Of a stretch of DNA of 35,867 nt, positions 1,081-35,867 are shown piece by piece. The DNA comes from a virus (taxonomy: Duplodnaviria; Heunggongvirae; Uroviricota; Caudoviricetes), in IMG/VR virus record IMGVR_UViG_2648501437_000030; one strand, 5' to 3'. The translations under genes were made by a program, and so were the position numbers. Every line of letters begins with the position of its first letter. Within the stretch, counting starts at the first letter, position 1. The notes under the pieces are model-generated. The model saw only the letters and a program-made list of their open reading frames with translations, was not told the DNA's origin and did not search any database.

Positions 1081-1226
1081 AACTACTGAACTTGCTTCTA
1101 AACAATTCAAAAAAGCTTCAAAACAAATAACAACAGGGCGACTGTTGAACGATTATACCGCAAAACAGTCTATAACATCCTAAACCCATTATTGAGGTAA
1201 GCCGTGCTTTAGTTCGCTCCTGGTTG

Positions 1227-1938: not shown

Positions 1939-2160
1939 ATGCATATGAATAAAAGAGCTAACCGCCAAGACTGGCATCGGGCTGACATCGTTGCTGAGTT
2001 ACGAAAACGCAATATGTCACTGGCCGAATTGGGAAGATCGAATCATCTTTCGTCTTCAACATTAAAAAATGCTTTAGATAAGAGATACCCAAAAGCGGAA
2101 AAAATCATTGCAGATGCATTGGGAATGACACCGCAGGATATCTGGCCATCTCGATACTAG
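1939..2160 (+). CDS. ner: Ner-like DNA-binding early regulator
   Basis: About 73 aa from ATG 1939 (RBS AAAGGA); [14 protein letters not shown]...IWPSRY matches the Ner/Nlp family. Confidence 0.85.
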
Positions 2161-2167
2161 GTGCGCT

Positions 2168-4156: not shown

Positions 4157-4194
4157 TTAACGTTTAAACTAAATTTAATTACGAGGTTATTCAG

Positions 4195-5133
4195 ATGAAT
4201 ATTTCCGATATTCGCGCAGGACTGCGCACGCTTGTAGAAAGTGAAAAAGCTACTTATGCACAAATTGCCCGCGAGTCCGGCGTGGCCGCAGGAACGTTAA
4301 GCGCATTCGTGAATAACAAGTACAACGGCGACAATGAACGTGTTGCGCAGACGCTGGAACGCTGGCTGGAGAACTATCACCGTGCCGCAGAGCTGCCAGA
4401 ACCACCGCGTTTTGTGGAAACCAGAACAGCACGCCAAATCTGGACGAGTATGCGTTTTGCCAGTCTGACTGAAAGTATTTCTGTTATCTGCGGTAATCCA
4501 GGTGTGGGAAAAACTGAAGCAGCCCGCGAATTTCGTCGCACCAATAACAATGTCTGGATGATCACCATTACCCCATCCTGCGCCAGTGTTCTGGAATGTC
4601 TCACTGAACTGGCGTATGAACTGGGAATGAATGACGCACCGCGCCGCAAAGGGCCGCTCTCCCGCGCTTTGCGACGCCGCCTTGAAGGTACGCAGGGGCT
4701 GGTCATTATCGACGAAGCTGATCATCTTGGCGCTGAAGTTCTGGAAGAACTCCGCCTGTTGCAGGAATCCGCCCGTATTGGCCTTGTTCTGATGGGGAAT
4801 CACCGCGTTTATTCAAACATGACCGGTGGTAACAGAACGGTTGAATTTGCCCGACTGTTTTCCCGTATTGCCAAACGGACGGCAATCAATAAAACCAAAA
4901 TTGATGATGTAAAGGCCATTGCGGATGCCTGGCAAATTACCGGCGAAAACGAGCGGGAATTATTACAGCAGATTGCGCAAAAACCAGGTGCACTTCGCAT
5001 CCTGAACCACTCGCTGCGCCTTGCGGCCATGACCGCCCACGGCAAAGGTGAACGTGTTAATGAAGATTATCTGCGTCAGGCTTTCCGTGAATTAGACCTC
5101 GACGTTGATATTTCAACCCTGCTGCGCACGTAA
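4195..5133 (+). CDS. B: Transposition ATPase / target DNA activator MuB
   Basis: 312 aa, N-terminal HTH, Walker A GNPGVGKT, Walker B IIDEAD; directly downstream of A. Confidence 0.9.
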
Positions 5134-5146
5134 GGAGAGCGAAATC

Positions 5147-5374
5147 ATGATGTCACGGAATATCAAAATGGCAACGGAAGTAAAGAGCTGGTTACAGGAG
5201 CGCGGCAGCCACGTCAACGAATCCTGGCTGGGCGTGGCCCGCCCGGTGCTTGAAATTACCTGCCCGCCACCGGAGCTGGTCAGAAACGCTGTCAGGATTA
5301 TGGAGCATAAATCAGGGGTTGCCCGTTCCGTATGGACGGCCCGCCTTAATGGTTGCCAGATTATCTGGCGTTAA
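5147..5374 (+). CDS. Small early protein at the position of Mu kil (function not established)
   Basis: 75 aa, RBS AGGAGAG 8 nt upstream, immediately after B. Confidence 0.5.
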
Positions 5375-5406
5375 TAACGGCTTATTTATTTGTGAGGAAT
5401 AACAAA

Positions 5407-5676
5407 ATGGCAAAAGTAATCTTTGAATTTAACCGCATGGAAGATGTTGAGTTTCAGAAAAAAGGAGGTTTCTTTGTAGGAATGAGTGTGCAACTGGAAG
5501 AACAGTCTCCTAAGGAGCAAACCGGACCGCATGACGTGATGGCAGGCATTATCAAGAGCATGGCTCCTGAAATTATTGAAAAAGCAACCCAGGAGTTGTT
5601 GAAGTCAGCCAGAGAACTTGGGCTGGAAGCCGAAGGCGAGTTATTCCGGTATAACCCGGATGCAGCCAAACATTAA
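5407..5676 (+). CDS. Hypothetical early-region protein
   Basis: 90 aa ORF with RBS GAGGAA; no family recognised. Confidence 0.5.
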   Translation: MAKVIFEFNRMEDVEFQKKGGFFVGMSVQLEEQSPKEQTGPHDVMAGIIKSMAPEIIEKATQELLKSARELGLEAEGELFRYNPDAAKH

Positions 5677-5692
5677 TTTCAGGGAAGGAGGC

Positions 5693-5983
5693 ATGATGAT
5701 AATCACTCGCAAAAGATGGTCACGCGAAGACCGGGAATTTATCGAAGCCAGTGTCGGGAAAATGACCGTCGAGGAAATGGCGAAAAAACTGAACGTTGCC
5801 CCAACCGCCCTACAGGCACATGCCAGAAGGCACGGAATATCGTTGTGTGCATACCGGGTCAGTGAGCACGACAAATATTTGTGTCGTGAACTTTATAAAG
5901 AAGGGCTGGCTATTCATGTCATTGCCCAAAAGATGGAATTAAGCAATCGTGCTGTATCCAGCATTGTATACAGCGAATATTAA
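5693..5983 (+). CDS. Hypothetical early-region protein with possible helix-turn-helix segments
   Basis: 97 aa from ATG 5693 (RBS GGAAGGAGG); HTH-like stretch EEMAKKLNVAPTALQAHARRHGI. Confidence 0.5.
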   Translation: MMIITRKRWSREDREFIEASVGKMTVEEMAKKLNVAPTALQAHARRHGISLCAYRVSEHDKYLCRELYKEGLAIHVIAQKMELSNRAVSSIVYSEY

Positions 5984-6003
5984 TTAACAGGAGCTTTATT
6001 TAT

Positions 6004-6528
6004 ATGGCTAAACCAGCAAAACGAATCAAGAATGCCGCAGCGGCTTATGTTCCACAGTCCCGCGATGCCGTGGTATGTGATATCCGCCGGATTGGTGACC
6101 TGCAACGCGAAGCGGCACGACTTGAAACGGAAATGAATGACGCTATCGCTGAAATTACAGAGAAATACGCCTCACAGATTGCGCCGCTAAAAACCAGTAT
6201 CGAAACCCTTTCAAAAGGCGTTCAGGGATGGTGTGAAGCGAACCGCGACGAACTGACGAACGGCGGCAAGGTGAAGACGGCGAACCTGGTAACCGGCGAT
6301 GTGTCATGGCGTCAGCGCCCACCATCGGTAAGTATTCGCGGTGTGGATGCGGTGATGGAAACGCTGGAGCGTCTTGGCCTGCAACGCTTTATTCGCACGA
6401 AACAGGAAATCAACAAGGAAGCGATTTTACTGGAACCGAAAGCGGTCGCAGGTGTTGCCGGAATTACAGTTAAGTCTGGAATTGAAGATTTTTCCATTAT
6501 TCCGTTTGAACAGGAAGCCGGTATTTAA
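6004..6528 (+). CDS. gam: Gam-like host-nuclease inhibitor (DNA-end-binding protein)
   Basis: 174 aa, coiled-coil N-terminus, resembles Mu Gam in sequence and position. Confidence 0.85.
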   Translation: MAKPAKRIKNAAAAYVPQSRDAVVCDIRRIGDLQREAARLETEMNDAIAEITEKYASQIAPLKTSIETLSKGVQGWCEANRDELTNGGKVKTANLVTGDVSWRQRPPSVSIRGVDAVMETLERLGLQRFIRTKQEINKEAILLEPKAVAGVAGITVKSGIEDFSIIPFEQEAGI

Positions 6529-6627
6529 TACCACCATTAATATTTAATTAATTCACTTTCTTTTAATTATGGCGCGATGCGTCAGGGGATTGCTCGCGCC
6601 TGAAACAGATTACTAAGGAATAAAAAA

Positions 6628-7170
6628 ATGGTTGATGCAAAAGTTTTGAACGGTGTCAGCACATTATTACGGACTTACGGGCGTCTGACCTGTGGTGTTC
6701 TGGCTGAAAAAATGAAGATGCCACCTTCCTCAATGGTGTATTTCCTGCGTGATGCGGTTGATGCCGGAGTTCTCACTGAATGCAACGGATTTTATGACGT
6801 TCCGCGCCCTCGTCCGACGCCTCCTGTAAGACGAAACGCAACAACGGAACACCCCGATGTTGATGATGCTCAATGGTGCGCGTTCCGCCGCTCTTTGCCC
6901 TGGCTGGAAGGCAATGCCATTCCGGCACTGGCAAAAGAATTTGCGACAGGCGTACTGACCTGCGAGTCGGTTTACATCGTTGCTGAAGTGGATGACGAGA
7001 TGTGCAAACAGGGAATGCCCCGTTTTGTGATGGCGTATATCGATATCCGGCTGGGGCGCTTTATTTGTGGTTCCAGTGGCTGGAATATCACCGACCACGT
7101 CATGCGCTATCTCATTCTTGATTATTCACCAGCTCCGGCCGCAACACAGGAAGTCAGTGAACATGATTAA
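6628..7170 (+). CDS. Hypothetical early accessory protein, possible N-terminal winged-helix
   Basis: 180 aa, RBS AAGGA; first gene of a three-gene overlapping cluster; no family recognised. Confidence 0.55.
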   Translation: MVDAKVLNGVSTLLRTYGRLTCGVLAEKMKMPPSSMVYFLRDAVDAGVLTECNGFYDVPRPRPTPPVRRNATTEHPDVDDAQWCAFRRSLPWLEGNAIPALAKEFATGVLTCESVYIVAEVDDEMCKQGMPRFVMAYIDIRLGRFICGSSGWNITDHVMRYLILDYSPAPAATQEVSEHD

Positions 7171-7345
7171 GTCAATTGGCTTTGTCCTGCTGGTTGGCAC
7201 CTGCGGGAATGATGCCTGTGATGCCATCCCTGTAACGGAAAAAATCTGGCCCACCGAGCAGGCATGTATGCAGGTGATGGAGCGCATACAAAAACATTAT
7301 CCCAATGAAATCTTTTATTGCGAAGAGGTATTAAGAAATGAATAA
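7163..7345 (+). CDS. Small Cys-rich protein with hydrophobic N-terminus (possible exported or lipoprotein-like peptide)
   Basis: 60 aa from ATG 7163, overlapping upstream stop (ATGATTAA); N-terminus MIKSIGFVLLVGTCG; four cysteines. Confidence 0.4.
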   Translation: MIKSIGFVLLVGTCGNDACDAIPVTEKIWPTEQACMQVMERIQKHYPNEIFYCEEVLRNE

Positions 7346-7727
7346 CGCAGAGAAAAATGAAATTAAATCCGCATCCGCCAGCACCAGAAAACATCTTTAT
7401 GATTTTTATGTCGCCTATAACCAGTGGTTAAAAAACGGAGCGCAAGAAACGGAAGGGGAAGGGTTTATTCGGGGAGTCGGATTATGCGCCAATGTTTATG
7501 ACTATTTTGAATCAATCGGAGCAGACAGCGAGGCTGCGCTAGAACAATTACATGCGGATTTTGTCGCGAGTGGGCTGGATGAATCCCTGCCATTTAATGT
7601 AGATAACGTGCACTACCATGATGAATGCCTACATGACAGATGCCACCTGAATTCTGCTCGTGTGGCATGGGTCGAAAAACACTGCATTAAGGAGATGGGG
7701 CAAAATGAGTCGCACATCCCTGATTAA
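7338..7727 (+). CDS. Hypothetical acidic early accessory protein with Cys/His cluster
   Basis: 129 aa; start overlaps upstream stop; HYHDECLHDRCH...HC motif; no family recognised. Confidence 0.5.
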   Translation: MNNAEKNEIKSASASTRKHLYDFYVAYNQWLKNGAQETEGEGFIRGVGLCANVYDYFESIGADSEAALEQLHADFVASGLDESLPFNVDNVHYHDECLHDRCHLNSARVAWVEKHCIKEMGQNESHIPD

Positions 7728-8256
7728 ATTAATTCATGTTGCCCGCCGGGAGTTGCACCTCGACGATGACACTTACCGCGCCTTTCTGGTGCAGTGCACG
7801 GGCAAAACCAGTTGCCGCGAGCTGTCCGTTGCACAACTGGAACAAGTGCTCGATGCCATGAAAGAGCGCGGTTTTAAAAAGCAGAATAAACATCCCCGCC
7901 GTCGCTTTAAGGGGCATGTCACACCGCGCGAGAAGATTTATAAAATCTGGCAGCAGATGTTTCTTGATGGTTTCGTATCCGATATCAGCGACGCCGCGCT
8001 GGACAAATACGTTGAACGCCTGACGGCCAGACGTAATGGCGGTCAGGGTGTTTCCACGCTGGCATGGTGTCACGGGGAATCGTTGCAGGTTGTGCTCGAA
8101 ACGCTCAAACAGTGGCACATGCGCTGCATCCGTGAAGCCTTTGCCCGACATGGTGTGCCTTTACCTGTAAGCCCATCCGGGCGGGAACTGCGCGGCTATG
8201 ATGCACTGACCAGTGCGTATGCCCGCGCACGAAACAGCGGGAGAATTGCTGTATGA
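7705..8256 (+). CDS. Mu gp16/GemA-like early protein
   Basis: 183 aa from ATG 7705 (RBS AAGGAGA); N-terminus MSRTSLIKLIHVARRELHLDD resembles the Mu gp16 family; located just before mor. Confidence 0.6.
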   Translation: MSRTSLIKLIHVARRELHLDDDTYRAFLVQCTGKTSCRELSVAQLEQVLDAMKERGFKKQNKHPRRRFKGHVTPREKIYKIWQQMFLDGFVSDISDAALDKYVERLTARRNGGQGVSTLAWCHGESLQVVLETLKQWHMRCIREAFARHGVPLPVSPSGRELRGYDALTSAYARARNSGRIAV

Positions 8257-8702
8257 AACAGATGAAAGAGCAGGATTTATTCGAAGACCTCCGGGACGAC
8301 AGCGTTCTGGAATATCTTCATGATTACCAGGAAAACACCGCTTATCCGGCGTTACTTTCTGAACTAAACGCACTGCTGCGTAAAGAGCTGGCCCGGATTG
8401 GCGCAGACCCTGCTCATTCCCTTGAGCTGGTTGTGGCGATTTGTCGCCATATCGGCGGGATGCAGGTTTATGTTCCGAGGGGGAATATTCTGGAGAATCT
8501 TGTCCGGGATATGCGTATCTGGCGTGATTTTAACGGCCATAATATTCCTGAACTGGTTCAGCGTTACGGAGTGACGTATAAAACCGTCTACAAGGCCATC
8601 AAACGGATGCGACGTCTGGAGCGCAATAAATACCAGCCGGATTTGTTTTACCCCTCCCCGAACCTGCCTCACCCCGTTCGTCGTCCGCCACGACGCCCTT
8701 AA
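8253..8702 (+). CDS. mor: Mor/C-family transcriptional activator
   Basis: 149 aa; DPAHSLELVVAICRHIGGMQVYVPRG and C-terminal HTH YGVTYKTVYKAIKRMRR match Mu Mor as recalled. Confidence 0.85.
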   Translation: MKQMKEQDLFEDLRDDSVLEYLHDYQENTAYPALLSELNALLRKELARIGADPAHSLELVVAICRHIGGMQVYVPRGNILENLVRDMRIWRDFNGHNIPELVQRYGVTYKTVYKAIKRMRRLERNKYQPDLFYPSPNLPHPVRRPPRRP

Positions 8703-8706
8703 TCAA

Positions 8707-8732
8707 TGAAGCCGGTAAATCCGGCTTTTTTT
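8707..8732 (+). terminator. Rho-independent terminator after mor (GCCGG-TAAAT-CCGGC plus T7)
   Basis: Short GC stem, 5-nt loop, T-run; the same 26-mer recurs at 16428..16453. Confidence 0.7.
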
Positions 8733-10007: not shown

Positions 10008-10603
10008 CCCTTTCAGGCATCGCCTCTGTTCTGCTGAAAGCTGGGCCGGGGCTGATTCGTTCCGTCGGGCGCTGGTTTGGTGGCAGTACATCTGCCGCCG
10101 CTGACTCGGTGGCCGGTATGGTGGAAAGTGTCCGGGAAAGCCTGCCGGTGGCTGAACAGCAACGCATTCTGGAACAAAAACTGGTGATGTTGTCACCGGA
10201 GCAACTGATGCAGCTGGAAACCCTGAAAGTTCAGCTGCAACAGCTGGAGGTGGAACGGCAGAAGCTGGTGCTGGCTGACCAGCAGGCCGCACACCACGAA
10301 CAGCAGGAAACCATCCGCAATGGTGACAACGCCACGGACAGCTATGTGCGCCAGACACGCCCGCTGCTGGCCCGCCTTTCCTGTTACAGCAGTCTGGCCT
10401 ATGTGCTGTTGCTCTCCTGCGGCCAGATTGCCGGAGCCATTGCCGGTGCCAGAGGTATCACGCTGCATATGCCATCACCGGACTGGGATATCACGCTGAT
10501 GTTGCTTACCCCGGCGCTGGGCTATCTCGGTGTAAGAACCCTTGACGGCTTTGCCCGTTACAGCAAATCAAGCCGTCACAAAATGTCTGCGGGGCCGAAA
10601 TGA
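9995..10603 (+). CDS. Membrane protein with central coiled coil and C-terminal hydrophobic helices (3TM-holin-like)
   Basis: 202 aa, RBS AAGGGGG; coiled-coil QLMQLETLKVQLQQLEVERQKL; C-terminal TM segments. Confidence 0.55.
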   Translation: MDPLTLSGIASVLLKAGPGLIRSVGRWFGGSTSAAADSVAGMVESVRESLPVAEQQRILEQKLVMLSPEQLMQLETLKVQLQQLEVERQKLVLADQQAAHHEQQETIRNGDNATDSYVRQTRPLLARLSCYSSLAYVLLLSCGQIAGAIAGARGITLHMPSPDWDITLMLLTPALGYLGVRTLDGFARYSKSSRHKMSAGPK

Positions 10604-10827
10604 CCGACGAAATCGATCGCATCAGTGAAGTGGTTCTGAACGAGCGTCAGAGCGTCGTTAAAGCCTGGCAGACACGGACAAAAGAAGCGCCCCACAGCCG
10701 GGGCTTCTGCAATGACTGCGGGAACGTTATTCCGGCACAGCGCCTTGCGGCGCTGCCGGATGTGGTGACCTGTATTGACTGTCAGCAGATGCGGGAACGC
10801 AGGAGGAAAACGTGTCCTGGGAAATGA
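10600..10827 (+). CDS. TraR/DksA-type C4 zinc-finger protein
   Basis: 75 aa; CNDCGNVIPAQRLAALPDVVTCIDCQ four-cysteine zinc ribbon. Confidence 0.7.
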   Translation: MTDEIDRISEVVLNERQSVVKAWQTRTKEAPHSRGFCNDCGNVIPAQRLAALPDVVTCIDCQQMRERRRKTCPGK

Positions 10828-16288: not shown

Positions 16289-16427
16289 CCCTCCCGCCGT
16301 AAATCCCCCTGAAACGCATCAGAAACGCGTTTTTTATTCTGATGGTGTGAATGTGCATTCTGACTTTTTTGAAGGTGCTGTGGCGTTTTTGAAGGGGTTT
16401 TGAAGGGGGGGGGCTTCCCGTTTTCAG

Positions 16428-16453
16428 TGAAGCCGGTAAATCCGGCTTTTTTT
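16428..16453 (+). terminator. Rho-independent terminator before gene I (exact copy of the 8707..8732 element)
   Basis: TGAAGCCGGTAAATCCGGCTTTTTTT identical 26-mer. Confidence 0.65.
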
Positions 16454-18367: not shown

Positions 18368-18392
18368 CCCGTCATCCGTAATCTGTAACCCG

Positions 18393-18441
18393 CAGTTAAA
18401 AGGCGCTGTGAATGCCCTTTTAACTGCCTTTTAAAAGGCAG
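18393..18441 (+). terminator. Tandem hairpins after the major head gene
   Basis: CAGTTAAAAGG...CCTTTTAACTG followed by palindromic CTGCCTTTTAAAAGGCAG. Confidence 0.55.
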
Positions 18442-22748: not shown

Positions 22749-22848
22749 CCTGTCCCAGCGATTCAGCATTCAGTACCTGGAACAGCTGCCCCTGCGGCAG
22801 CTGTTCCGCCTGATAAAGCAACTGGAGAAACAGCATGGCAACAGGTAA
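22639..22848 (+). CDS. Possible frameshift extension of the tail assembly chaperone (GT-like)
   Basis: 69-aa ORF in the +1 frame relative to 22353..22748, ending at the tape-measure start; this arrangement is conserved in long-tailed phages. Confidence 0.4.
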   Translation: MSLSARKPLRWMTCLRRWQRGGDLMPLAAALMNLLVNLSQRFSIQYLEQLPLRQLFRLIKQLEKQHGNR

Positions 22849-27948: not shown

Positions 27949-29014
27949 AATTCCCACGCTGGGCAAACTGATTGCCGACGGCGAAAAAGATATTGCGTAT
28001 GAACTCGGCCTGCAAAAGCTGCCGCCTGTCAGTGTTGAGCAGGCGCTGAATGTGTCATTCAGCAGTCAGGTCCGGGATTTATACGACCATCAGAGCTGGA
28101 TCAAGGACCAGATAATTCCGTCCACTACGTCTGATGATGAAACCATTATCAAAACAGCAACGTATGAAGGGGTTATCCGCAAGCAGGCAACCTTTGCCAG
28201 CGGGCCGGTGACCTTCACCAGTCAGTCCCCCATTCCGGCAGAAACCCTGATGCAGTCCGACACGAATCAGGTGTATCAGGTACTCACATCCGGCGAGGTA
28301 CAGGACGGCGAGGTCACTGTCATCGTGCAGGCTGAAGAAGCCGGTGTGGCGGGCAATCTTGCTGCCGGTGCCGTGCTGACCCTGCTGTCCCCGTTGCCCG
28401 GAACGGGCAGCACAGGCGCGGTGACTGAAAGTGGCATCACCGGTGGCGCAGACATCGAATCCATCGCAGAGCTGCTGGACCGTCTGCTGTATGTGCGCCG
28501 CAATCCCCCGGTGGGCGGTGCACTGCATGATTACGTCATCTGGGCGCGTGAAGTGCCGGGTGTCAGCCGCGCGTGGGCGTGGGATGCGTGGCACGGCCCC
28601 GGCACGGTCGGGCTGGCATGGCTTTATGATGACCGTGAAGACATTATCCCCACACGGGACGACCTGAAGACAATGGAGCAGTATCTGTTCTGCCACAAAC
28701 ACCCGGCCACCGGCGTGATGGTAGGTAAACCGGGCGGCATCGAGGTCTGGCCGGTGCAGGTCAGGCTGAAGAAGCTCGACCTGTCCATCCGTCTGACACC
28801 GGACAGCCAGGCGAACAGGAACGCCGTCCGGGCAAACCTGACCGCATTACAGAAAACGCTGGCCCCCGGTCAGCTGCTGCCGGTGTCCTCGCTGCGCACG
28901 GCCATCGGTATGACGTCCGGTATCACGGATTACTTCCTGAACATCGGGGAAGACACCACCAGTGATGTGGATGAGCTTATCACCATCGGGGAGGTGACAT
29001 GGCTCACAGCGTGA
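27938..29014 (+). CDS. Baseplate J-like protein (Mu gp47-like)
   Basis: 358 aa, conserved position. Confidence 0.8.
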   Translation: MPYEIPTLGKLIADGEKDIAYELGLQKLPPVSVEQALNVSFSSQVRDLYDHQSWIKDQIIPSTTSDDETIIKTATYEGVIRKQATFASGPVTFTSQSPIPAETLMQSDTNQVYQVLTSGEVQDGEVTVIVQAEEAGVAGNLAAGAVLTLLSPLPGTGSTGAVTESGITGGADIESIAELLDRLLYVRRNPPVGGALHDYVIWAREVPGVSRAWAWDAWHGPGTVGLAWLYDDREDIIPTRDDLKTMEQYLFCHKHPATGVMVGKPGGIEVWPVQVRLKKLDLSIRLTPDSQANRNAVRANLTALQKTLAPGQLLPVSSLRTAIGMTSGITDYFLNIGEDTTSDVDELITIGEVTWLTA

Positions 29015-29583
29015 CGGAATGGCTGACCGCACTGCAACAGGTCATGCCACGGGGTAAGGCATGGCCGCGTGATAACGACACGGATTTAAACCGTTTTTTA
29101 AGGGCGCTTGCAGAGCGTTTAACCCGCGTTGAATACGACGCCTCGCGTCTGCATGTGGAGATGCGACCGGAAACCACGCTCCAGCTGCTGCCGGAGTGGG
29201 AGCAATATCTGGCGCTGCCGGAATGCGGAATTGCCGCCACCACAACGGAAGCCCGCCGCCGGGCCGTGGTGGAGAAATACCGCCGCAAAGGCGGGCTGGC
29301 AACCTGGCAGATTGAAGCCGCAGCGGCGGCGCTGGGCTTCACCATTAAGGTGACGGCCGTTCTGCCGCACCACTGCCTGCGTGACTGCATGTACCCGCTG
29401 CATCCGGCACGGTATCGCTGGCTGCTGAAAGTGGAAGTCCCGGACAACGATGCCGGGCGGTTTACCTGTATTGATGACGTTATGACGCCATTAATCAGCG
29501 AACGGACCCGAGAGCTGGAATGCCTGCTGAAGCATTACCGGCTGGCGGGTACGGAATATGAATATTATTACACCGGAGAATAA
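28999..29583 (+). CDS. Tail protein (Mu gp48-like)
   Basis: 194 aa, between J-like baseplate gene and tail fibre gene. Confidence 0.7.
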   Translation: MAHSVTEWLTALQQVMPRGKAWPRDNDTDLNRFLRALAERLTRVEYDASRLHVEMRPETTLQLLPEWEQYLALPECGIAATTTEARRRAVVEKYRRKGGLATWQIEAAAAALGFTIKVTAVLPHHCLRDCMYPLHPARYRWLLKVEVPDNDAGRFTCIDDVMTPLISERTRELECLLKHYRLAGTEYEYYYTGE

Positions 29584-29586
29584 TTT

Positions 29587-30582
29587 ATGTTTTATGTGGA
29601 TAACCCGACGGGTGTGCCGGTGATGCCACCTGTCGCGGCGGTATCAAGCCTGGCGACGCTTTATTTCACCGAAGGCGGGAACGGTATTCCGCCCACGTAT
29701 CCGGGGCCGGACTGGTTTAATATTATTCAGTCTGAACTGCTGGAAATTCTCCGGCAGGCAAATATCAAACCGGATAAAAATACCACCAACCAGATTATGA
29801 CAGCGCTGAAAAAACTGTTTATTACGAACAGTGGTTCAGCCGGTGCTATTGCCGGATTAACCGGTCAGAATAATACATTCCCTTATTTTACCGGCAAAGA
29901 CACAATGGCATTAACACCGCTCAGTGCGTTTGTGCGCAGTATTCTCGGGAAAAACAGCGCCAGTGAATTTATTAAAGCAATCGGCCTGTCACCAGACATC
30001 CTTTTATCAAAAGGACCGGTGACAGCATTAAGCAGTACAGCACAGGGCAATGCAGGACTTCAGATGTATGAAGTGTACAACAACGGCTATCCCACAGCTT
30101 ATGGCAATGTTCTGCATCTGAAAGGCGCGGCAGCATCTGGCGAAGGCGAACTGCTGATTGGCTGGAGTGGCACGAGCGGTGCGCATGCTCCGGTTTATAT
30201 TCGCTCAAGGCGTGATACCACCGATGCAGTCTGGTCTGAATGGGCGCAGGTGTTTACATCAAAAGACAGCTTCAACGCAGCATCCGCCACAAAACTACAG
30301 ACCCCACGCAAAATTAACGGTACGGCATTTGATGGCACCAGAGATATCACCATCAGCAGCACCGATTCTGGTGCTGTGCGTGATTTCAGATACACCAGCG
30401 AAGTGTTTCACAATCCCGGTGGTAACGAAATTTCCTGGGTATTCCGCGCGCCTTCAGGGTGTATTTTGTCAGGTATTAACGTTCAGGATACTGGCAGAAG
30501 TTCTGCGGATAACATCGGCGGCGTGTATTACAAACAAACCCAGATTTATATCAATGGCGGATGGCGCACGGTATCCGGCTAA
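29587..30582 (+). CDS. Tail fibre protein (Mu S-like, single fixed version)
   Basis: 331 aa; Gly/Ser/Thr-rich C-terminal region; followed by a U-like assembly gene. Confidence 0.75.
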
Positions 30583-30596
30583 TTAAGGAGAAAATA

Positions 30597-31127
30597 ATGG
30601 AACTCAGAAACGTCACGCGTTATTACCCGGAAGAGATGCCTTATGGTGAAAACATTCAGTATTTCCGCAGTGAAGACGGACAGGATTTTTATGAATCACT
30701 GGATAAATTCACGAAGAAATACAAATTGTGTATTCACCCGGAAACCGGCGTGATTTATTCAATGGCAGAAGACGTGTCCCGTCTTTATCCTGTTGGTTTT
30801 ACCATTGTGGAAGTGGATGAACTGCCGGAGGGTTTTGGCATCGAAGCCAGCTGGTATTACCGGGATGGCGAAGTACTGCCAGTTCCTGTTGATTATTCGA
30901 AACTGGCAGAAAAGCAACGTCAGCGCTTGCTGAATGAAGCAAAGGAAATCACTTCCGACTGGAAAACCGAGCTGGAGCTTGGCACCATCAGTGATGACGA
31001 CAAGGCCCGTCTTACGCAGTGGATGGAATATATCAAAGCGGTAAAGGCGCTGGATTTAAGCACCGTTACTGACGAAGCCTCCTTTAATGCCATCAACTGG
31101 CCGGAGCGTCCCGATGCCGCAGCTTAA
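30597..31127 (+). CDS. Tail fibre assembly protein (Mu U / Tfa-like)
   Basis: 176 aa from ATG 30597 (RBS AAGGAG); Tfa-type organisation. Confidence 0.75.
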   Translation: MELRNVTRYYPEEMPYGENIQYFRSEDGQDFYESLDKFTKKYKLCIHPETGVIYSMAEDVSRLYPVGFTIVEVDELPEGFGIEASWYYRDGEVLPVPVDYSKLAEKQRQRLLNEAKEITSDWKTELELGTISDDDKARLTQWMEYIKAVKALDLSTVTDEASFNAINWPERPDAAA

Positions 31128-33711
31128 AGGTGTGATTAAAACGCCCACGGGAGAACCGCTGGGCGGCGCAACCATTACACTGACCTCCCTGCACAACCGT
31201 GCAGGGATTCTGAAAGGTGTTTTCAGTCACGTCACCACACAGAATGGGGAATATAACTTCCCCGTTCTGCCGGGCGTGTACAGCGTTCGCCTGACGCAGA
31301 GTGTACAGCGCCTTTCAGAAATCGGTGTCATCCGCGTTTATGAAGATTCAGCGGATGGTTCGCTGAATGATTTTCTGGGCGCAACCGATATTGACCTGCG
31401 CCCGGAATCCCTGAAGAAATACGAGGAACTGGCACAGCAGGCGCAGCAGAGCGCGGAAGCCGCAGCAGAAAGCGAGCAGCAGGCAGGGCAACATGCAGAC
31501 GCTGCCGCCCGGGAAAAAGAAGAGGTAAAAAACCTGGCGGAAGGTGTTCAGCAGAACGCCGACGCGGTTGCGGAGGGTAAACAACAGGTCGAAACTCTGG
31601 CCTCAGAAGTTGGGCAGAATGCCGCCGCGGCAGCCATGAGTGCTCAGGAGGCGAAAGACGCAGCCGGGCATGTGCAGGGATTCATTCATGACCACCTTTC
31701 AGTATCAACCCGTTATTCGGTAACAGAGGCGAACCGTCAGCTACAGGCGTTGAGGATAAACAGCGGGCGCTACGAGGGGCTGTGGCGCTACCTGAATGCG
31801 AACGGTGGTATCAACTGGTATTTTCTGTTTCTTGCCGTGTATGAAAGTGAAGGAAAATGCTTTTCCCTCAGTGACCGTATGACAATTTGCGAAAAGGCGT
31901 TAAGACTGGGGCTTGTGGTTCCGTTTATGACAGGTTGCCGTTATGAAGCCGGGCAGCGCCTGACAATAGACGGCACGCTCTTTTTTGTTAATATCGCGGG
32001 CACCACCGGGGAAACGTTGCCTGATATCACCTCTGTAGCCCCCGGAGATTTTGTCCGGACTGGCTCCGCTGTGCTGGAGTGCCTGAAAAGCCCCTCAAAC
32101 CGAATCCCGGCTGCATGGCAGTATTTTTTTCTGGATGTGGCTCCGGATTTGTATACCCCCGTTGCGCCGGACTCCACGGACAGCTACCCGGCGCTCTGGT
32201 TCGCCTGCATTGCTGAATTTGCGGACAGTGCCTGGTTACAGGAGCCAGCCGGAATCGGCGGGTCCAGCCGCTGGGAAATCATAAAACAGGTGGCAAAGTT
32301 CAATATCGTTGCTGAAATAAATCCGGTGGCCAGTCTGGTAAACGTATTCCAGCACAATCTTGCACCCGGTGACCGGGCTTATGCACAGTGTTTTTGTCAG
32401 GATAACGCAGAGGTTTATGCTGGTTTACGTGCACTGAAAACACTGGCTGACCTTGCCGGAGATACCACTGCTGCAACTGAATATACCGCTGCCATGAAAA
32501 CCATCAGGGCTGGCCTGCTTGCGTTGTTTGTACCTGAACAAAAACGGTTCCTGACGTATTACAACGAGACGGATTACCCGGCAGAGCCTGGTGAAGGGCG
32601 TTTTGTTGATAAGGACCGTTTTTCTGTGGCCCCGTGGCGCTTTGGGGTGCTGGAAACACAGGAAGAAGTGGAACGGTACGGCAGGCAGGTTCTGGACGCC
32701 ATACAGAGTGCTTACCCGGACCTGTTCACGGCAAATTACGACGGCATTGATACGTTTGCCATGAGTGATTTTTTTGCTTTTGTGGCAAAGGTTACCACTT
32801 CTCAGACGGCAGCCACGGCTGCCATCAGACGCCTGCAAATCCGGGCGACATCTGCCGTCACGGTGGCCGACGTTGCCGCCGCCATATCCGTTACAGCCTG
32901 GGGAAAAATCCCACAGTTTCGTGCCTGTGATTTTATGCGCATCAACGGGCATTCCGTGCTCGGAGGGGGCGATATCACGCTGGGCGCGGCGACCACAATG
33001 GAGCCACAGAGTGATATTCGCGACAGGACGGAAGGCAGGCTGGCACTTCCCGATGCCTTCGGTTTTGGGCGTATATTCAACACAAACGAAACTGTCCGCT
33101 TTGACTCAGAAAATGATTTTCTGGTGTGGGTAAAACAGGTCACGCCAGGAGAATATTTTGTTGAGGGTGGCAATAAAATTATACCCAATGTGCTGTTCAG
33201 CGGGATTGTCAGTATTCGGTGGATTGAGTCCAGATATGCCACACCGAGTCCGATAAATACAGCAAAGGCGATTATTTTCTATGGTGTTAATGGCCACATT
33301 TATTACAACCGCTACTGGACCACAGGAAATGGTTATCTCATTGACTGGGAATCACTGAAGGTAACCTCGCAGGACATTATTGCTCTTCTGTCCGGCCTTG
33401 CTCCCGGAACTACAGATACCTGGTACGGCACTGGCAGCCTGATACTGGCGGCATATAACGGCCAGGGAAACGCAGACCCGGACCGCAGAATAAAGCGAGG
33501 TTACAGCTATCCTGGGTCACGTCTGAGTGCGGTTGAATTGATGTGTTACGGTACGACCGGGACCGGGGTTAAATACAACGGCAGTGTTTCTGTGTATGTT
33601 CAGGGTTCCGGTGGCGGAATGCCAGGCACATACCGGGCATTGTCGGGGAATGGACTGGGGTCTGCCGGTTCCGCCAGCGTCATGATTGGTCTGTTTATAC
33701 GAGTTGCGTAG
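31114..33711 (+). CDS. Lambda-Stf-like side tail fibre/tailspike with large central domain of unknown (possibly enzymatic) function
   Basis: 866 aa from ATG 31114; N-terminal domain (...VYSVRLTQ...IRVYEDSADGSLNDFLGA) matches lambda Stf family N-termini, then Ala/Gln/Glu-rich coiled coil, about 500 aa globular region, Gly-rich C-terminus. Confidence 0.75.
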   Translation: MPQLKGVIKTPTGEPLGGATITLTSLHNRAGILKGVFSHVTTQNGEYNFPVLPGVYSVRLTQSVQRLSEIGVIRVYEDSADGSLNDFLGATDIDLRPESLKKYEELAQQAQQSAEAAAESEQQAGQHADAAAREKEEVKNLAEGVQQNADAVAEGKQQVETLASEVGQNAAAAAMSAQEAKDAAGHVQGFIHDHLSVSTRYSVTEANRQLQALRINSGRYEGLWRYLNANGGINWYFLFLAVYESEGKCFSLSDRMTICEKALRLGLVVPFMTGCRYEAGQRLTIDGTLFFVNIAGTTGETLPDITSVAPGDFVRTGSAVLECLKSPSNRIPAAWQYFFLDVAPDLYTPVAPDSTDSYPALWFACIAEFADSAWLQEPAGIGGSSRWEIIKQVAKFNIVAEINPVASLVNVFQHNLAPGDRAYAQCFCQDNAEVYAGLRALKTLADLAGDTTAATEYTAAMKTIRAGLLALFVPEQKRFLTYYNETDYPAEPGEGRFVDKDRFSVAPWRFGVLETQEEVERYGRQVLDAIQSAYPDLFTANYDGIDTFAMSDFFAFVAKVTTSQTAATAAIRRLQIRATSAVTVADVAAAISVTAWGKIPQFRACDFMRINGHSVLGGGDITLGAATTMEPQSDIRDRTEGRLALPDAFGFGRIFNTNETVRFDSENDFLVWVKQVTPGEYFVEGGNKIIPNVLFSGIVSIRWIESRYATPSPINTAKAIIFYGVNGHIYYNRYWTTGNGYLIDWESLKVTSQDIIALLSGLAPGTTDTWYGTGSLILAAYNGQGNADPDRRIKRGYSYPGSRLSAVELMCYGTTGTGVKYNGSVSVYVQGSGGGMPGTYRALSGNGLGSAGSASVMIGLFIRVA

Positions 33712-33718
33712 GTGATTT

Positions 33719-34285
33719 ATGGAAGTAAAAAAAATCGAAAATGCGCGCTGGCTGGAAAGCGGCGCGATTGACTGCGACGTATTGTTTGAGGGGATGGACG
33801 AGGCCCTGCCGTATACAGCGACAGCAGACGATACCGCACCGACGGGCCAGCAAATCTGGCAGGAACTGCAAAGTGGCAAATGGGGTGAAATCGCCCCGTT
33901 TACAGTCACGCCTGAACTTATCGCAGCGGCAAAAGATGCCAAAAAGATGGAAATCGAGGCGTGGCGCACAGAACAGGAGGCACTGCCGTTCACGTTCGAA
34001 TGGAATGGCCGCACCTGGAATGCTGGCCCCGACTCAATGGCCCGTCTTTATCCGGTAGTAATGGCGGCGAAATCCGATACGGCACGAACCACCCTTGCGT
34101 GGGGTGATGCCGATAATCAACAGGTGAAACTGTCAATGCCGGAACTGGAAGAACTGGCGACAGCAATGGCGCAGGCACAGGTCGATCGCAATGACGAGAT
34201 TTATCAGCGCCAGCGTGAAATGAAGGAGCAGCTTTCCCGGCTGTCCATACTGGACGAGGTGAGAGCGTTATCGGTGATTAAATAA
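33719..34285 (+). CDS. Tail fibre assembly chaperone-like protein (DUF4376-type)
   Basis: 188 aa immediately downstream of the Stf-like gene; FEWNGRTWNAGPDSMARL motif typical of fibre-adjacent chaperone-like proteins. Confidence 0.6.
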   Translation: MEVKKIENARWLESGAIDCDVLFEGMDEALPYTATADDTAPTGQQIWQELQSGKWGEIAPFTVTPELIAAAKDAKKMEIEAWRTEQEALPFTFEWNGRTWNAGPDSMARLYPVVMAAKSDTARTTLAWGDADNQQVKLSMPELEELATAMAQAQVDRNDEIYQRQREMKEQLSRLSILDEVRALSVIK

Positions 34286-34303
34286 TCAGTTTGTATAGTT
34301 TAT

Positions 34304-34331
34304 GACGATCGATAACATCATATCGATCGTC
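34304..34331. promoter_or_regulatory. Perfect 11-bp inverted repeat with two GATC sites upstream of com/mom
   Basis: GACGATCGATA-acatca-TATCGATCGTC, GATC at 34307..34310 and 34325..34328, about 75 bp upstream of the com start. Confidence 0.45.
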
Positions 34332-34404
34332 GGTTTGCATCAGTTGTGATTAAATACCCCCAGCCCTCCGGGCGGTCATGTCTGGTTATTACACAGGGGG
34401 AATC

Positions 34405-34590
34405 ATGGACTCTGTTCGCTGTAAAAACTGCAATAAATTACTGTTTAAAGGAGGTTTTAAGCATATAGAAATTAAATGCCCTCGCTGTAAACGTTACATT
34501 GTCATATCGAATGCCAAAGAGCATCCCACGGAGCTGTATTGTGGGAAAAGAGAAGAAATCACGCATTCTGACAAAACCCTGCGTTATTGA
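34405..34590 (+). CDS. com: Com zinc-finger translational activator of mom
   Basis: 61 aa from ATG 34405 (RBS AGGGGG); ...[26 protein letters not shown]... near-identical to Mu Com as recalled. Confidence 0.85.
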
Positions 34591-35245
34591 GTATGAAGGC
34601 CGGATTGTCGGCTATGGTTCAAGGGAGTTGCGCGTTGAAACCATATCCTGTTGGCTGGCCCGCACAATCATTCAGACAAAACACTATTCCCGCCGTTTTG
34701 TGAATAACTCCTACCTGCATCTGGGCGTATTCAGCGGACGTGATCTGGTTGGCGTTCTTCAGTGGGGATATGCCCTTAACCCCAACTCAGGGCGTCGTGT
34801 TGTGCTGGAAACGGATAACCGGAGCTATATGGAACTGAACCGCATGTGGTTACACGACGACATGCCCCGCAACTCTGAATCACGGGCCATCAGCTACGCG
34901 CTAAAAACCATCAGACTACTGTATCCGTCAGTGGAGTGGGTTCAGTCTTTTGCCGACGAACGCTGCGGACGCGCTGGTGTGGTATATCAGGCGTCGAATT
35001 TTGATTTTATTGGCAGCCATGAAAGCACGTTCTACGAGCTGGATGGTGAGTGGTATCACGAGATAACGATGAACGCGATTAAGCGTGGAGGGCAACGAGG
35101 CGTGTATTTGCGGGCTAATAAGGAGCGGGCCGTGGTACACAAATTTAATCAGTATCGCTACATCAGGTTCCTGAATAAGCGCGCAAAAAAGCGACTAAAC
35201 ACTAAGCTATTCAGGATTCAGCCATACCCCAAAAACACATCTTGA
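34511..35245 (+). CDS. mom: Mom DNA-modification enzyme (adenine N6 carbamoylmethyl-type modification); start codon uncertain
   Basis: ORF open from 34499 (TTG); in-frame ATG 34511 and GTG 34541; overlaps the 3-prime end of com; sequence closely matches Mu Mom as recalled. Confidence 0.85.
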
Positions 35246-35271
35246 TTTGTATCAAATAATTTTGTCATGCC

Positions 35272-35363: not shown

Positions 35364-35867
35364 ATGATGCGCAAAGCTCTCAAGATGGTCCTTATTACTA
35401 CAGCGATAATCTCACCAATAGCGCAGGCACAATGGCTAACCCAAACCGAAGATGACTTGTTTTCTGATGGTAAAAAGGCAGCGATGATTGGTGAAACGTC
35501 ATCTGACAATAGTGCGATCATTTTCAATTGTACAAAAAATACTCTTACCGCTGCATACGTGGAGATGGACAAAACACACGAATCAACAGCCAAAATGCCA
35601 ATGGAGTTGGTGATGAAAGTTGATGGAAATAACGCACTCAAATTTAACGCAACGCTTTCAAGAAGGAACGTGCAAGCTCTCGAAATTGCAACTAATGATG
35701 CTGAACAACTCAAAATTCTTCTCAAACAACTGAAGGAAGCCAAATCTCAAGTATTGGTTGGCGCGCAAACAGAAGATGGCGGCAGCAAATTTTCCCTTTC
35801 TGCTAATGTGTCCGGCTCAACTTCTGCTGTTAATAAGTTTGTAGCGGCATGTGAAATAAAATTGTAA
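35364..35867 (+). CDS. Exported protein of unknown function (cleavable signal peptide), cargo gene downstream of mom
   Basis: 167 aa, RBS AGGAAA; signal-like N-terminus MMRKALKMVLITTAIISPIAQAQ; two Cys in mature part; lower GC than phage core; stop at the last base of the window. Confidence 0.6.
   Translation: MMRKALKMVLITTAIISPIAQAQWLTQTEDDLFSDGKKAAMIGETSSDNSAIIFNCTKNTLTAAYVEMDKTHESTAKMPMELVMKVDGNNALKFNATLSRRNVQALEIATNDAEQLKILLKQLKEAKSQVLVGAQTEDGGSKFSLSANVSGSTSAVNKFVAACEIKL

What the first reader, a model, noticed from the sequence alone, without database searches (positions are those of the whole stretch)
34286..34404. GATC-containing perfect palindrome upstream of com/mom
About 75 bp upstream of com lies GACGATCGATA-acatca-TATCGATCGTC, a perfect 11-bp inverted repeat carrying two Dam sites. 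Mu mom transcription is known to depend on Dam methylation of upstream GATC sites, which blocks a host repressor (OxyR), and on the phage activator. This palindrome is a candidate methylation-sensitive repressor site, in a different arrangement from the three-GATC region of Mu as I recall it.
Basis: partly seen in the sequence, partly recalled or inferred. Interest (0 to 1): 0.45.

Follow-up and report, generated by a model that had tools for sequence, protein, structure and literature searches.

The report
Two-GATC OxyR/Dam operator upstream of mom

Summary
GACGATCGATA-acatca-TATCGATCGTC lies at 34304-34331, with GATC at 34307 and 34325, 73 bp before the com ATG at 34405.

It is not a new arrangement. 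It aligns without gaps with the Mu/D108 mom operator: the same ATAG-N8-GATC, the same 18-bp spacing between GATC1 and GATC2, and CATC exactly where Mu has GATC3. The E. coli agn43 OxyR/Dam operator has the same layout and a 10/11 version of the same arms.

Across about 20 mom lineages the region fits two OxyR half-sites 31-32 bp apart, the geometry reported for reduced OxyR. The palindrome centre is the dyad axis of that operator.

Among 20 window-type variants the arms are nearly invariant, while the 6-nt spacer and the flanks vary.

Caveats:
- The downstream half-site matches only 5/10, the weakest of all lineages. The OxyR consensus match alone is not significant (p about 0.1).
- The promoter was not located.
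- The prophage has a Mor orthologue but no C gene.

Best reading: a diverged orthologue of a known methylation-sensitive OxyR operator (confidence about 0.6). Interest is modest.

The parts
33719..34285 (+). Upstream gene: DUF4376 / tail-fibre-type protein, the last gene of the tail-fibre block. Its stop codon lies 18 bp before the palindrome.
   Evidence: ORF list; RefSeq annotation of the identical prophage in RM11911; PHROG tail fiber protein, E = 7e-87.
34295..34309 (+). OxyR-like half-site A, ATAGTTTATGACGAT. It matches ATAGnTnnnAnCTAT at 8/10. Its 3' element, CGAT, overlaps GATC1.
   Evidence: Only 5 of 35,852 15-mers in the window score 8/10 or better. ATAG lies 12 bp before GATC1, as in Mu, agn43, L054, L057 and L095. 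Only 2 of 15 columns vary in 20 variants.
34304..34314 (.). Left arm of the perfect palindrome, GACGATCGATA. It contains GATC1 at 34307-34310.
   Evidence: Only the outermost G varies among window-type relatives.
34315..34320 (.). Palindrome spacer, acatca. This is the centre of the operator, with the dyad axis at 34317.5.
   Evidence: 3 of 6 columns vary in 20 variants (acatca, ccatca, gcatca, tcatca, gaatca, caatcg). L095 has cacact.
34321..34331 (.). Right arm of the palindrome, TATCGATCGTC. It contains GATC2 at 34325-34328.
   Evidence: 0 of 11 columns vary in 20 variants.
34326..34340 (+). Putative OxyR half-site B, ATCGTCGGTTTGCAT, a 5/10 match. It starts 31 bp after half-site A.
   Evidence: It occupies the same position as Mu ATCGGTAATACAGAT (7/10), agn43 ATCGTTTATATCGAT (8/10) and L007 ATCGTTTGTATCTAT (9/10). 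3 of 15 columns vary, and two of those three fall at n positions of the consensus. It is the weakest B half-site of all lineages.
34338..34341 (.). CATC at the exact position of Mu GATC3, 13 bp after GATC2. The third Dam site is absent.
   Evidence: Ungapped comparison anchored on GATC2.
34344..34372 (+). Second conserved block, TTGTGATTAAATACCCCCAGCCCTCCGGG. It holds TTGT-N6-ATAC at the same offset from GATC2 (19 and 29 bp) as the Mu C-binding dyad TTAT-N6-ATAA. This is a candidate activator or promoter element; its function is not established.
   Evidence: Offsets. ATAACCCC-type motifs in the Mu late-promoter oligonucleotides. 4 of 20 columns vary at 34347-34366, against 24 of 38 at 34367-34404.
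34405..34590 (+). com: zinc-finger translational activator of mom.
   Evidence: ORF and translation; RefSeq annotation; nucleotide identity of about 89% to Mu/D108 com-mom from 34415 onward.
34511..35245 (+). mom: DNA adenine modification enzyme, overlapping com. The Mu-equivalent GTG start would be at 34541.
   Evidence: RefSeq annotation. The protein is 97% identical to Mu Mom.

Best explanation
The palindrome is the core of a roughly 46-bp operator (34295-34340) for the host LysR-type regulator OxyR. It is orthologous to the Dam-controlled operator of the phage Mu mom operon and built like the E. coli agn43 operator.

Proposed mechanism:
- Reduced OxyR, a tetramer, would bind two half-sites: A at 34295-34309 and B at 34326-34340. 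They are 31 bp apart and symmetric about the palindrome centre.
- The two GATCs sit in the inner contact elements, CGAT of half-site A and ATCG of half-site B.
- When host Dam methylates them, OxyR cannot bind and com-mom can be transcribed.
- On unmethylated DNA, or possibly hemimethylated DNA, OxyR binds and represses.

Shown here: the sequence, the positional homology, the shared geometry across lineages, and the conservation.

Inferred: OxyR binding itself, its methylation sensitivity, and repression.

Relative to Mu, this lineage has lost the third GATC and has a degenerate half-site B. Its half-site A is better and its inner dyad is perfect. The C-dependent promoter downstream has been remodelled in a phage that has no C gene.
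For: 1. Ungapped correspondence with the Mu and D108 mom upstream regions. Mu reads ATAGaaaacGACGATCGAatcaattaaaTCGATCGgtaatacaGATC. The window reads ATAGtttatGACGATCGAtaacatcataTCGATCGtcggtttgCATC.

2. The Mu coordinates were checked. The transcription start is at L001 947, because the published primer 'downstream of +56' maps to 1003. The GATCs are therefore at -87, -69 and -56. Dam methylation of three GATCs in a 43-bp region upstream of mom prevents OxyR binding (PMC7549136, citing Sun and Hattman 1996).

3. K-12 agn43 has ATAG-N8-GATC-N15-GATC-N9-GATC and the arms AACGATCAATA / TATCGATCGTT. OxyR and Dam compete at these three GATCs.

4. In about 20 independent mom lineages the GATC spacings are fixed at 18 and/or 13 bp. 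The best A-N16/17-B match falls at the homologous place:
   - agn43 16/20 (p about 0.001)
   - L095, L008 and L055 15/20
   - Mu 14/20 (p about 0.009)
.

5. Half-sites 32 bp apart are described as canonical for reduced OxyR at opvAB, where 7/10 and 8/10 half-sites are functional. [quoted passage not shown]

6. In the window, the site at 34295 is among the top 3 of 35,821 positions for the gap-16 model.

7. Conservation in 20 variants is confined to 34295-34340, apart from the spacer. Similarity to relatives with different upstream genes begins at about 34288-34290.
Against: - Half-site B matches only 5/10, the worst of all lineages. The total of 13/20 is reached by about 10% of dinucleotide shuffles of the local 240 bp, and a second 13/20 placement exists (34264 + 34295).
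- With the compact 37-bp OxyR consensus the site scores 12/20, as do 12 other places in the window.
- The promoter it would control was not found. There is no conserved sigma-70 promoter and no Mu-type -10 or T-run.
- The dyad shows compensatory changes between lineages. A conserved host protein does not predict this; a hairpin or quasi-palindrome correction would.
- There are no binding or expression data of any kind.
- The OxyR footprint limits in Mu (-104 to -46) are recalled from Sun and Hattman 1996. They could not be checked because the paper is not held.
Confidence: 0.6

Rival explanations
1. The palindrome acts as a nucleic-acid hairpin rather than a protein site. It could be an RNA stem-loop at the 3' end of the tail-fibre operon transcript (weak terminator or 3' stabiliser), or sit in a long com leader. 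It could also be a DNA cruciform or hairpin.
For: - The RNA hairpin has a free energy of -16.7 kcal/mol (z = -4.2; 0 of 200 shuffles fold as well).
- It starts 18 bp after the stop codon of the upstream gene.
- Dyad pairing is kept in 90% of cells across 19 distinct sequences. Five of 11 pairs change on both sides, and 0 of 500 shuffles reach the covariation score.
- Several G-T combinations would be G-U pairs on the + strand.
Against: - No U tract follows the stem (GGTTTGCATC), and no + strand terminator is called.
- In Mu and agn43, where the function is known to be OxyR/Dam, the same dyad gives only -8.5 and -7.4 kcal/mol.
- Within the window-type group the outermost pair is lost without compensation (G to A in L010, L011 and L042).
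- The element travels with com-mom behind different upstream genes. In Mu its left arm lies inside the gin coding sequence.
- There is no Rfam match.
- The covariation could come from quasi-palindrome correction.
Confidence: 0.12
2. In this C-less lineage the perfect 11-bp dyad has become the operator of a different dimeric DNA-binding protein, phage-encoded or host. That protein, not OxyR, would control com-mom. The GATCs might still make its binding methylation-sensitive.
For: - The inner dyad is perfect and invariant, whereas the OxyR half-site B has decayed to 5/10.
- The promoter region downstream has diverged from Mu, and the phage lacks C.
- The same arms, GATCGATA-N6-TATCGATC, recur with a different spacer in the more distant L095.
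Against: - No candidate protein was identified.
- The arm sequence occurs nowhere else in the window, so it is not part of a regulon.
- The only Mor-family protein has Mor-type sites of quite different sequence, GCCGG-N5-CCGGC, at 8711-8725 and 16432-16446.
- agn43, an established OxyR operator, has 10/11 of the same dyad. L095 combines these arms with a good half-site B (8/10).
Confidence: 0.12
3. The site is an evolutionary relic of the Mu-type operator with little or no present function. Its perfect symmetry would result from template-switch correction of a quasi-palindrome.
For: - One GATC and part of half-site B have been lost, and the C-dependent promoter is gone.
- Compensatory-looking changes can arise by mutation bias alone (inference).
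Against: - The arms and both half-sites are far more conserved than the adjacent non-coding sequence in 20 variants. One of 22 arm columns varies, against 4 of 6 at 34341-34346 and 24 of 38 at 34367-34404.
- GATC is otherwise avoided in this genome.
- The operator is retained even in L015, where com and most of mom are deleted. That deletion appears in only one locus, so it may be recent.
Confidence: 0.08

Closest known systems
Mu / D108 mom operon upstream region (Dam-dependent, OxyR-repressed, three GATC sites)
   Same: - Positional orthologue, just upstream of an 89%-identical com-mom (Mom protein 97% identical).
- ATAG 12 bp before GATC1.
- Flanks GACGATCGA...TCGATCG.
- GATC1 and GATC2 exactly 18 bp apart.
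- An ATA(A/C)C motif 29 bp after GATC2.
- The same dyad axis.

   Different: - The third GATC is CATC.
- Half-site B scores 5/10, against 7/10 in Mu.
- The arms are 11/11 complementary, against 8/11 in Mu.
- There is no T6 run, no TAAGAT -10 and no TTAT-N6-ATAA dyad (the window has TTGT-N6-ATAC).
- The distance from GATC1 to the com ATG is 98 bp, against 109 bp in Mu.
- The upstream gene is a tail-fibre-type gene instead of gin.
- The phage has no C gene.

E. coli agn43 (flu) OxyR/Dam phase-variation operator
   Same: - ATAG-N8-GATC.
- Two OxyR half-sites about 31-32 bp apart with GATCs in the contact elements.
- A near-identical dyad: AACGATCAATA / TATCGATCGTT, against GACGATCGATA / TATCGATCGTC in the window.

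   Different: - agn43 has three GATCs spaced 19 and 13 bp apart.
- Both half-sites score 8/10.
- The palindrome spacer is 7 nt.
- It is a chromosomal gene with proven heritable ON/OFF switching.
Nothing is known about switching for the window element.
Salmonella / P22 gtr and opvAB OxyR-Dam switches
   Same: OxyR half-sites carry GATCs. Pairs of GATC 13 bp apart fall within one half-site. The geometry is that of reduced OxyR, with half-sites about 32 bp apart.
   Different: Those systems have three or four half-sites and four GATCs, with alternative OxyR positions that give activation or repression. The window has a single A-B pair and two GATCs, one in each half-site.
Rho-independent terminator after a late operon
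   Same: A stable stem-loop immediately after a stop codon.
   Different: There is no U tract, and the scan does not call it. The stem is only 5/11 G-C.

Membership tests
Dam-methylation-sensitive OxyR operator (Mu mom / agn43 type) | Two OxyR half-sites resembling ATAGnTnnnAnCTAT at tetramer spacing (about 31-32 bp start to start for reduced OxyR) | tested here: inconclusive
   Half-site A scores 8/10 and half-site B 5/10, with 31-bp spacing. The total of 13/20 is in the top 3 of 35,821 window positions, but p is about 0.10 against local shuffles. Mu scores 14/20 and agn43 16/20 at the homologous place. Geometry from PMC4856963.
Dam-methylation-sensitive OxyR operator (Mu mom / agn43 type) | GATC sites lie inside the OxyR contact elements | tested here: met
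   GATC1 overlaps the CGAT element of half-site A. GATC2 overlaps the ATCG element of half-site B.
Dam-methylation-sensitive OxyR operator (Mu mom / agn43 type) | Positional homology to the experimentally defined Mu operator upstream of com-mom | tested here: met
   The ungapped comparison shows the same ATAG-N8-GATC-N14-GATC and the same offset to the ATA(A/C)C motif.
Dam-methylation-sensitive OxyR operator (Mu mom / agn43 type) | Three GATC sites (spacing 18/19 bp then 13 bp) | tested here: not met
   There are only two. The third position reads CATC at 34338-34341. L007 and L095 also lack the third GATC, and L077-type loci lack the first. Across lineages, three sites are therefore not universal.
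Dam-methylation-sensitive OxyR operator (Mu mom / agn43 type) | Sequence constraint on the operator relative to its flanks | tested here: met
   Variable columns in 20 variants: half-site A 2/15, gap 3/16 (all in the spacer), half-site B 3/15. The flanks vary in 4/6 and 24/38 columns.
Dam-methylation-sensitive OxyR operator (Mu mom / agn43 type) | OxyR binds unmethylated but not methylated DNA, and expression depends on dam and is relieved by oxyR mutation | not testable with these tools
   This needs EMSA or footprinting and reporter fusions.
Mu C-dependent late promoter (Pmom type) | The phage encodes the activator C | tested here: not met
   The only Mor/C-family gene is 8253-8702. It is 63% identical to Mu Mor and 32% to Mu C. 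tblastn with C finds nothing else. No close C was found on window-type IMG/VR contigs, whereas Mu-type contigs have one.
Mu C-dependent late promoter (Pmom type) | C-binding dyad TTAT-N6-ATAA centred near -43.5 | tested here: inconclusive
   TTGT-N6-ATAC lies at the same offset from GATC2. The variants L051 and L019 have TTAT-N6-ATAC and TTAT-N6-ATAT.
Mu C-dependent late promoter (Pmom type) | Poor -35, 19-bp spacer with a T6 run, and a TAAGAT -10 | tested here: not met
   None of these is present between 34357 and 34404. No conserved sigma-70 promoter was found.
Rho-independent terminator | Stable stem-loop followed directly by a U tract | tested here: not met
   The stem is present (-16.7 kcal/mol), but the tail is GGTTTGCATC. 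The scan reports no + strand terminator in 34100-34700.
com-mom operon | A Com zinc-finger ORF overlapping the start of a Mom ORF | tested here: met
   com is at 34405-34590 and mom at 34511-35245. Mom is 97% identical to Mu Mom.

The most novel reading that the evidence does not exclude
In this Mu-like lineage, which has no C activator, the two-GATC OxyR/Dam operator may be the main control of com-mom rather than a back-up. If so, it could behave like agn43, as a heritable ON/OFF epigenetic switch. Only a subpopulation of lysogens or induced cells would express the Mom DNA hypermodification. This would be bet-hedging between restriction evasion and Mom toxicity. Whether Mu mom expression phase-varies is still described as unknown (PMC2909390).
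Probability: 0.1. Interest if true: 0.6.

Novelty: new variant of a known kind. Interest (0 to 1): 0.3.

Why it matters
On its own this is a diverged copy of a textbook regulatory site, so the direct interest is modest. It is useful in three ways:

- It shows that the Dam/OxyR operator of mom is a conserved module across many enterobacterial Mu-like phages. The geometry is fixed (GATC spacings of 18 and/or 13 bp, half-sites 31-32 bp apart). It is shared with agn43. The number of GATCs (two or three) and which of them are kept varies between lineages.
- It is a natural experiment. This operator has a natural GATC-to-CATC change at the third site, and the lineage has lost the C activator. It could show which parts of the Mu circuit are essential.
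- It gives a concrete, testable place to ask whether mom expression is phase-variable.

Tried and rejected
- **Compact 37-bp OxyR consensus scan.** The site scores 12/20, but so do 12 other window positions, so it does not discriminate. It was replaced by the extended half-site model.
- **Terminator reading.** No + strand terminator is called and there is no U tract.
- **A sigma-70 promoter upstream** (GTGAGA-16-AATAAT, 34259-34286), which would place the operator in a leader as I recall for agn43. It is not conserved in relatives, which have a 4-nt indel or different upstream genes.
- **Other candidate -10 elements** (TGnTTAAAT at 34347-34355, TGTGAT/TATGAT at 34345-34350, TATTAC at 34387-34392). 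None is convincing, and the transcription start remains unknown.
- **Mor-type activator site.** The Mu Pm-like element GCCGG-N5-CCGGC plus T7 occurs at 8706-8732 and 16427-16453, but nothing similar lies upstream of com.
- **Second Mor/C gene or other regulator.** None was found; the only other candidate is a DksA-like zinc finger at 10600-10827.
- **Rfam.** No credible hit.
- **Arm sequence elsewhere in the window.** None.
- **Original papers.** Bolker and Kahmann 1989, Sun and Hattman 1996, Hattman and Sun 1997 and the EcoSal review are not held. The OxyR footprint limits in Mu are therefore from memory.
- **Genome-contig search with one Mom protein.** It gave only 3 loci. The viral-contig search with an alignment gave 80.

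Full report
**1. The observation**

The sequence GACGATCGATA-acatca-TATCGATCGTC is present at 34304-34331 as a perfect 11-nt inverted repeat with a 6-nt spacer. It carries GATC at 34307 and 34325. It lies in the 119-bp gap between the stop codon of a DUF4376 tail-fibre-type gene (33719-34285) and the com ATG at 34405. mom overlaps com, at 34511-35245.

Several results say it is more than chance:
- GATC is strongly avoided in this window: 53 sites against 122 +/- 10 expected, with none between 28102 and 34184.
- Only four GATC pairs in the window lie within 40 bp of each other. P(at least 2 GATC in 119 bp) is about 0.014.
- It is one of four perfect short-range inverted repeats of at least 11 nt in the window.

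Some of the symmetry is automatic, because CGATCG and ATCGAT are self-complementary.

**2. Context**

The window is a Mu-like prophage of E. coli. It is 100% identical to prophages in strains RM11911, RM13752 and XJ6-3 and is inserted in gspE. It is a mosaic:
- The early region and com-mom are about 89% identical to Mu, D108 and SfMu.
- The late region has no nucleotide match to any isolated phage in the collection.
- Similarity to Mu resumes only at 34415, inside com, so BLAST does not align the regulatory region.

**3. Comparison with Mu and D108**

Read side by side, the two regions correspond without gaps:
- Mu: ATAGaaaacGACGATCGAatcaattaaaTCGATCGgtaatacaGATCgaTTATgccccaATAAcc
- Window: ATAGtttatGACGATCGAtaacatcataTCGATCGtcggtttgCATCagTTGTgattaaATACcc

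The following features are shared:
- ATAG lies 12 bp before GATC1.
- GATC1 and GATC2 are exactly 18 bp apart.
- The Mu GATC3 position reads CATC in the window.
- An ATA(A/C)C motif lies 29 bp after GATC2.

I checked the Mu numbering. The published mom primer, said to anneal downstream of +56, maps to L001 1003. That places +1 at 947 and the Mu GATCs at -87, -69 and -56.

Published statements relevant here:
- Dam methylation of three GATCs within 43 bp upstream of mom prevents OxyR binding (PMC7549136, citing Sun and Hattman 1996).
- Dam, OxyR, C, RNA polymerase and Fis all act in this region (PMC3378877).
- My recollection that OxyR-C199S protects -104 to -46 in Mu could not be verified, because the papers are not held.

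Mu itself has an 8/11 version of the same dyad.

**4. Wider comparison**

I fetched 80 viral contigs and 3 genome contigs encoding Mom (71-99% identity), plus E. coli variants.

*GATC spacing.* Upstream of com, most lineages carry GATCs at fixed spacings: 18 bp (sites 1-2), 13 bp (sites 2-3), or both.
- Mu-type, L047, L054, L008, L056 and L090 have all three sites.
- The window type, L007 and L095 have sites 1 and 2 only.
- L077-type and L089 have sites 2 and 3 only.

*agn43.* The K-12 agn43 regulatory region is the classical OxyR/Dam switch. It reads ATAG-N8-GATC-N15-GATC-N9-GATC and contains AACGATCAATA-N7-TATCGATCGTT, a 10/11 version of the window's arms.

*Half-site model.* Scoring the OxyR dimer half-site ATAGnTnnnAnCTAT shows a common architecture. 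Half-site A starts 30-31 bp before GATC2, and half-site B starts 1 nt after the G of GATC2. The start-to-start distance is therefore 31-32 bp.
- This is the distance described as canonical for reduced OxyR at opvAB, where half-sites of 7/10 and 8/10 are functional (PMC4856963).
- The dyad axis of this A-N16-B operator coincides with the palindrome centre in the window (34317.5), in Mu (L001 870.5) and in agn43 (L097 329).

Best scores fall at the homologous place:

| Locus | Score | p against 1000 dinucleotide shuffles of about 240 bp |
|---|---|---|
| agn43 | 16/20 | about 0.001 |
| L095 | 15/20 | about 0.005 |
| L008 | 15/20 | about 0.007 |
| L055 | 15/20 | about 0.001 |
| Mu | 14/20 | about 0.009 |
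| L077 | 14/20 | about 0.014 |

**5. Where the window stands**

- Half-site A (34295-34309, ATAGTTTATGACGAT) scores 8/10. Only 5 of about 35,850 15-mers in the window do as well.
- Half-site B (34326-34340, ATCGTCGGTTTGCAT) scores 5/10, the lowest of any lineage.
- The sum, 13/20, ranks in the top 3 of 35,821 window positions for a 16-bp gap.
- About 10% of shuffles of the local 240 bp reach it, and a second 13/20 placement exists.
- The compact 37-bp consensus does not discriminate either: 12/20, shared with 12 other places.

The case for OxyR here therefore rests on positional homology and conservation, not on the consensus score.

**6. Conservation**

Among 20 distinct window-type sequences from E. 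coli genomes and IMG/VR, the numbers of variable columns are as follows:

| Segment | Variable columns |
|---|---|
| Half-site A | 2 of 15 |
| 16-bp gap | 3 of 16 (all in the palindrome spacer) |
| Half-site B | 3 of 15 (two of the three at n positions of the consensus) |
| 34341-34346 | 4 of 6 |
| 34347-34366 | 4 of 20 |
| 34367-34404 | 24 of 38 |

Further points:
- The right arm never varies, and the left arm varies only at its outermost G.
- Spacer variants are acatca, ccatca, gcatca, tcatca, gaatca and caatcg. L095, whose Mom is 81% identical, has the same GATCGATA / TATCGATC arms around cacact.
- Arms against spacer gives Fisher p = 0.0066.
- Relatives with different upstream genes (L004, L005) become similar at about 34277-34290, close to the left edge of the predicted operator.
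- The 56-bp operator occurs in 49 of 5,426 complete E. coli genomes and is annotated in none. I did not check the context of each place, but the overlapping 421-bp search found com and mom next to it.

**7. The dyad itself**

Across 19 distinct GATC-N14-GATC blocks, 90% of cells are complementary. Five of 11 pairs change on both sides, and no shuffle or slid control comes close.

Part of this is explained by the symmetric OxyR consensus: A at position 9 of half-site A pairs with T at position 5 of half-site B. The variety of pair types is not what a fixed host protein predicts. It may reflect quasi-palindrome correction or a hairpin function.

As RNA the window hairpin is stable (-16.7 kcal/mol, z = -4.2). 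In Mu and agn43 it is weak (-8.5 and -7.4 kcal/mol). No U tract follows it, no terminator is called on the + strand, and no Rfam family matches. I therefore keep the hairpin as a minor rival.

**8. The promoter and the activator**

This part is unresolved.
- The prophage has a single Mor/C-family gene (8253-8702). It is 63% identical to Mu Mor and 32% to Mu C. tblastn with C finds nothing else.
- Mu Pm-like elements (TGAAGCCGGTAAATCCGGCTTTTTTT) precede the endolysin gene (8706-8732) and ORF 16503 (16427-16453). They resemble Mu Pm, TAAAGCCGGTTAATCCGGCTTTTTTT. No such element precedes com.
- Instead, the second conserved block (34344-34372) has TTGT-N6-ATAC at the offset of the Mu C dyad TTAT-N6-ATAA. 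Some variants read TTAT-N6-ATAC or TTAT-N6-ATAT. Its ATACCCCCAG resembles the ATAACCCC motif of the Mu late promoters.
- Contigs with the Mu-type three-GATC region carry a C gene. No close C relative was found on any window-type contig, although that search reaches only close relatives.
- Mu-like geometry would put the start near 34394, but there is no acceptable -10 there. No candidate sigma-70 promoter is conserved.

**9. Verdict**

The finding is real and biologically meaningful, but it is a diverged orthologue of a well-known element: the Dam-methylation-sensitive OxyR operator of the mom operon.

What differs from Mu:
- two rather than three GATCs
- a weak distal half-site
- a perfect inner dyad
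- a remodelled promoter in a phage without C

I give the OxyR/Dam operator reading a confidence of about 0.6, the alternatives about 0.1 each, and rate the interest as modest.

Noticed in passing
window 8253-8702; 8706-8732; 16427-16453: The prophage has a Mor orthologue (63% identical to Mu Mor) but no C gene. Two copies of a Mu Pm-like element (TGAAGCCGGTAAATCCGGC followed by T7) sit directly before the endolysin gene and before ORF 16503. This suggests a two-tier cascade, in which Mor drives the late genes directly, instead of Mu's three tiers.
   Followed up: partly
window 1-35867 (especially 28102-34184): GATC is depleted about 2.3-fold (53 sites against 122 expected). A 6-kb stretch covering the tail-fibre genes has none.
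   Followed up: no
window 8200-34400 versus 1220-8205 and 34415-35264: The genome is a mosaic. The early region and com-mom are about 89% identical to Mu, D108 and SfMu. The whole late (lysis and morphogenesis) region has no nucleotide match to any isolated phage in the collection.
   Followed up: partly
window 35364-35867: A 167-aa ORF lies between mom and the prophage right end, in an AT-rich segment. Its N-terminus looks like a signal peptide (MMRKALKMVLITTAIISPIAQAQ). It matches phrog_19473, of unknown function. It sits where D108 has its gene 56 and is probably a moron.
   Followed up: partly
L015 (E. coli bR_120_Kylling) 912-1000; window 34351-35136: In this relative a deletion joins window position 34350 to 35137. 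It removes com and most of mom but leaves the GATC operator intact.
   Followed up: partly
L011 and L042, at the com start codon: These variants have an extra GATC overlapping the com ATG (GGTGGGATCATG), and their Shine-Dalgarno region is changed.
   Followed up: no
window 18392-18441 and 22779-22807: Other perfect inverted repeats of 12-13 nt occur here. The first lies between genes and the second just before the start of ORF 22835. They may be terminators or regulatory hairpins of the late operons. An ATAACCCG motif at 18364 precedes the first one.
   Followed up: no
window 10600-10827: A DksA/TraR-like zinc-finger protein (phrog_54) is encoded in the lysis and early-late region. It is the only other candidate regulator seen downstream of the Mor-like gene.
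   Followed up: no
window 34361-34373 and 34395-34399: A small G+C-rich hairpin (GCCC-tcc-GGGC) is conserved in the com upstream region. Variants change only the loop or make a G-T pair. A CCCCC run at 34357-34361 could pair with the GGGGG Shine-Dalgarno of com, which might be a leader structure.
   Followed up: no
L055, L067, L092 (IMG/VR loci): Some mom lineages have a GATC 31 bp upstream of site 2 instead of 18 bp, giving a 31 + 13 spacing. L057, like agn43, has 19 + 13. The distal site is therefore placed in more than one way.
   Followed up: partly
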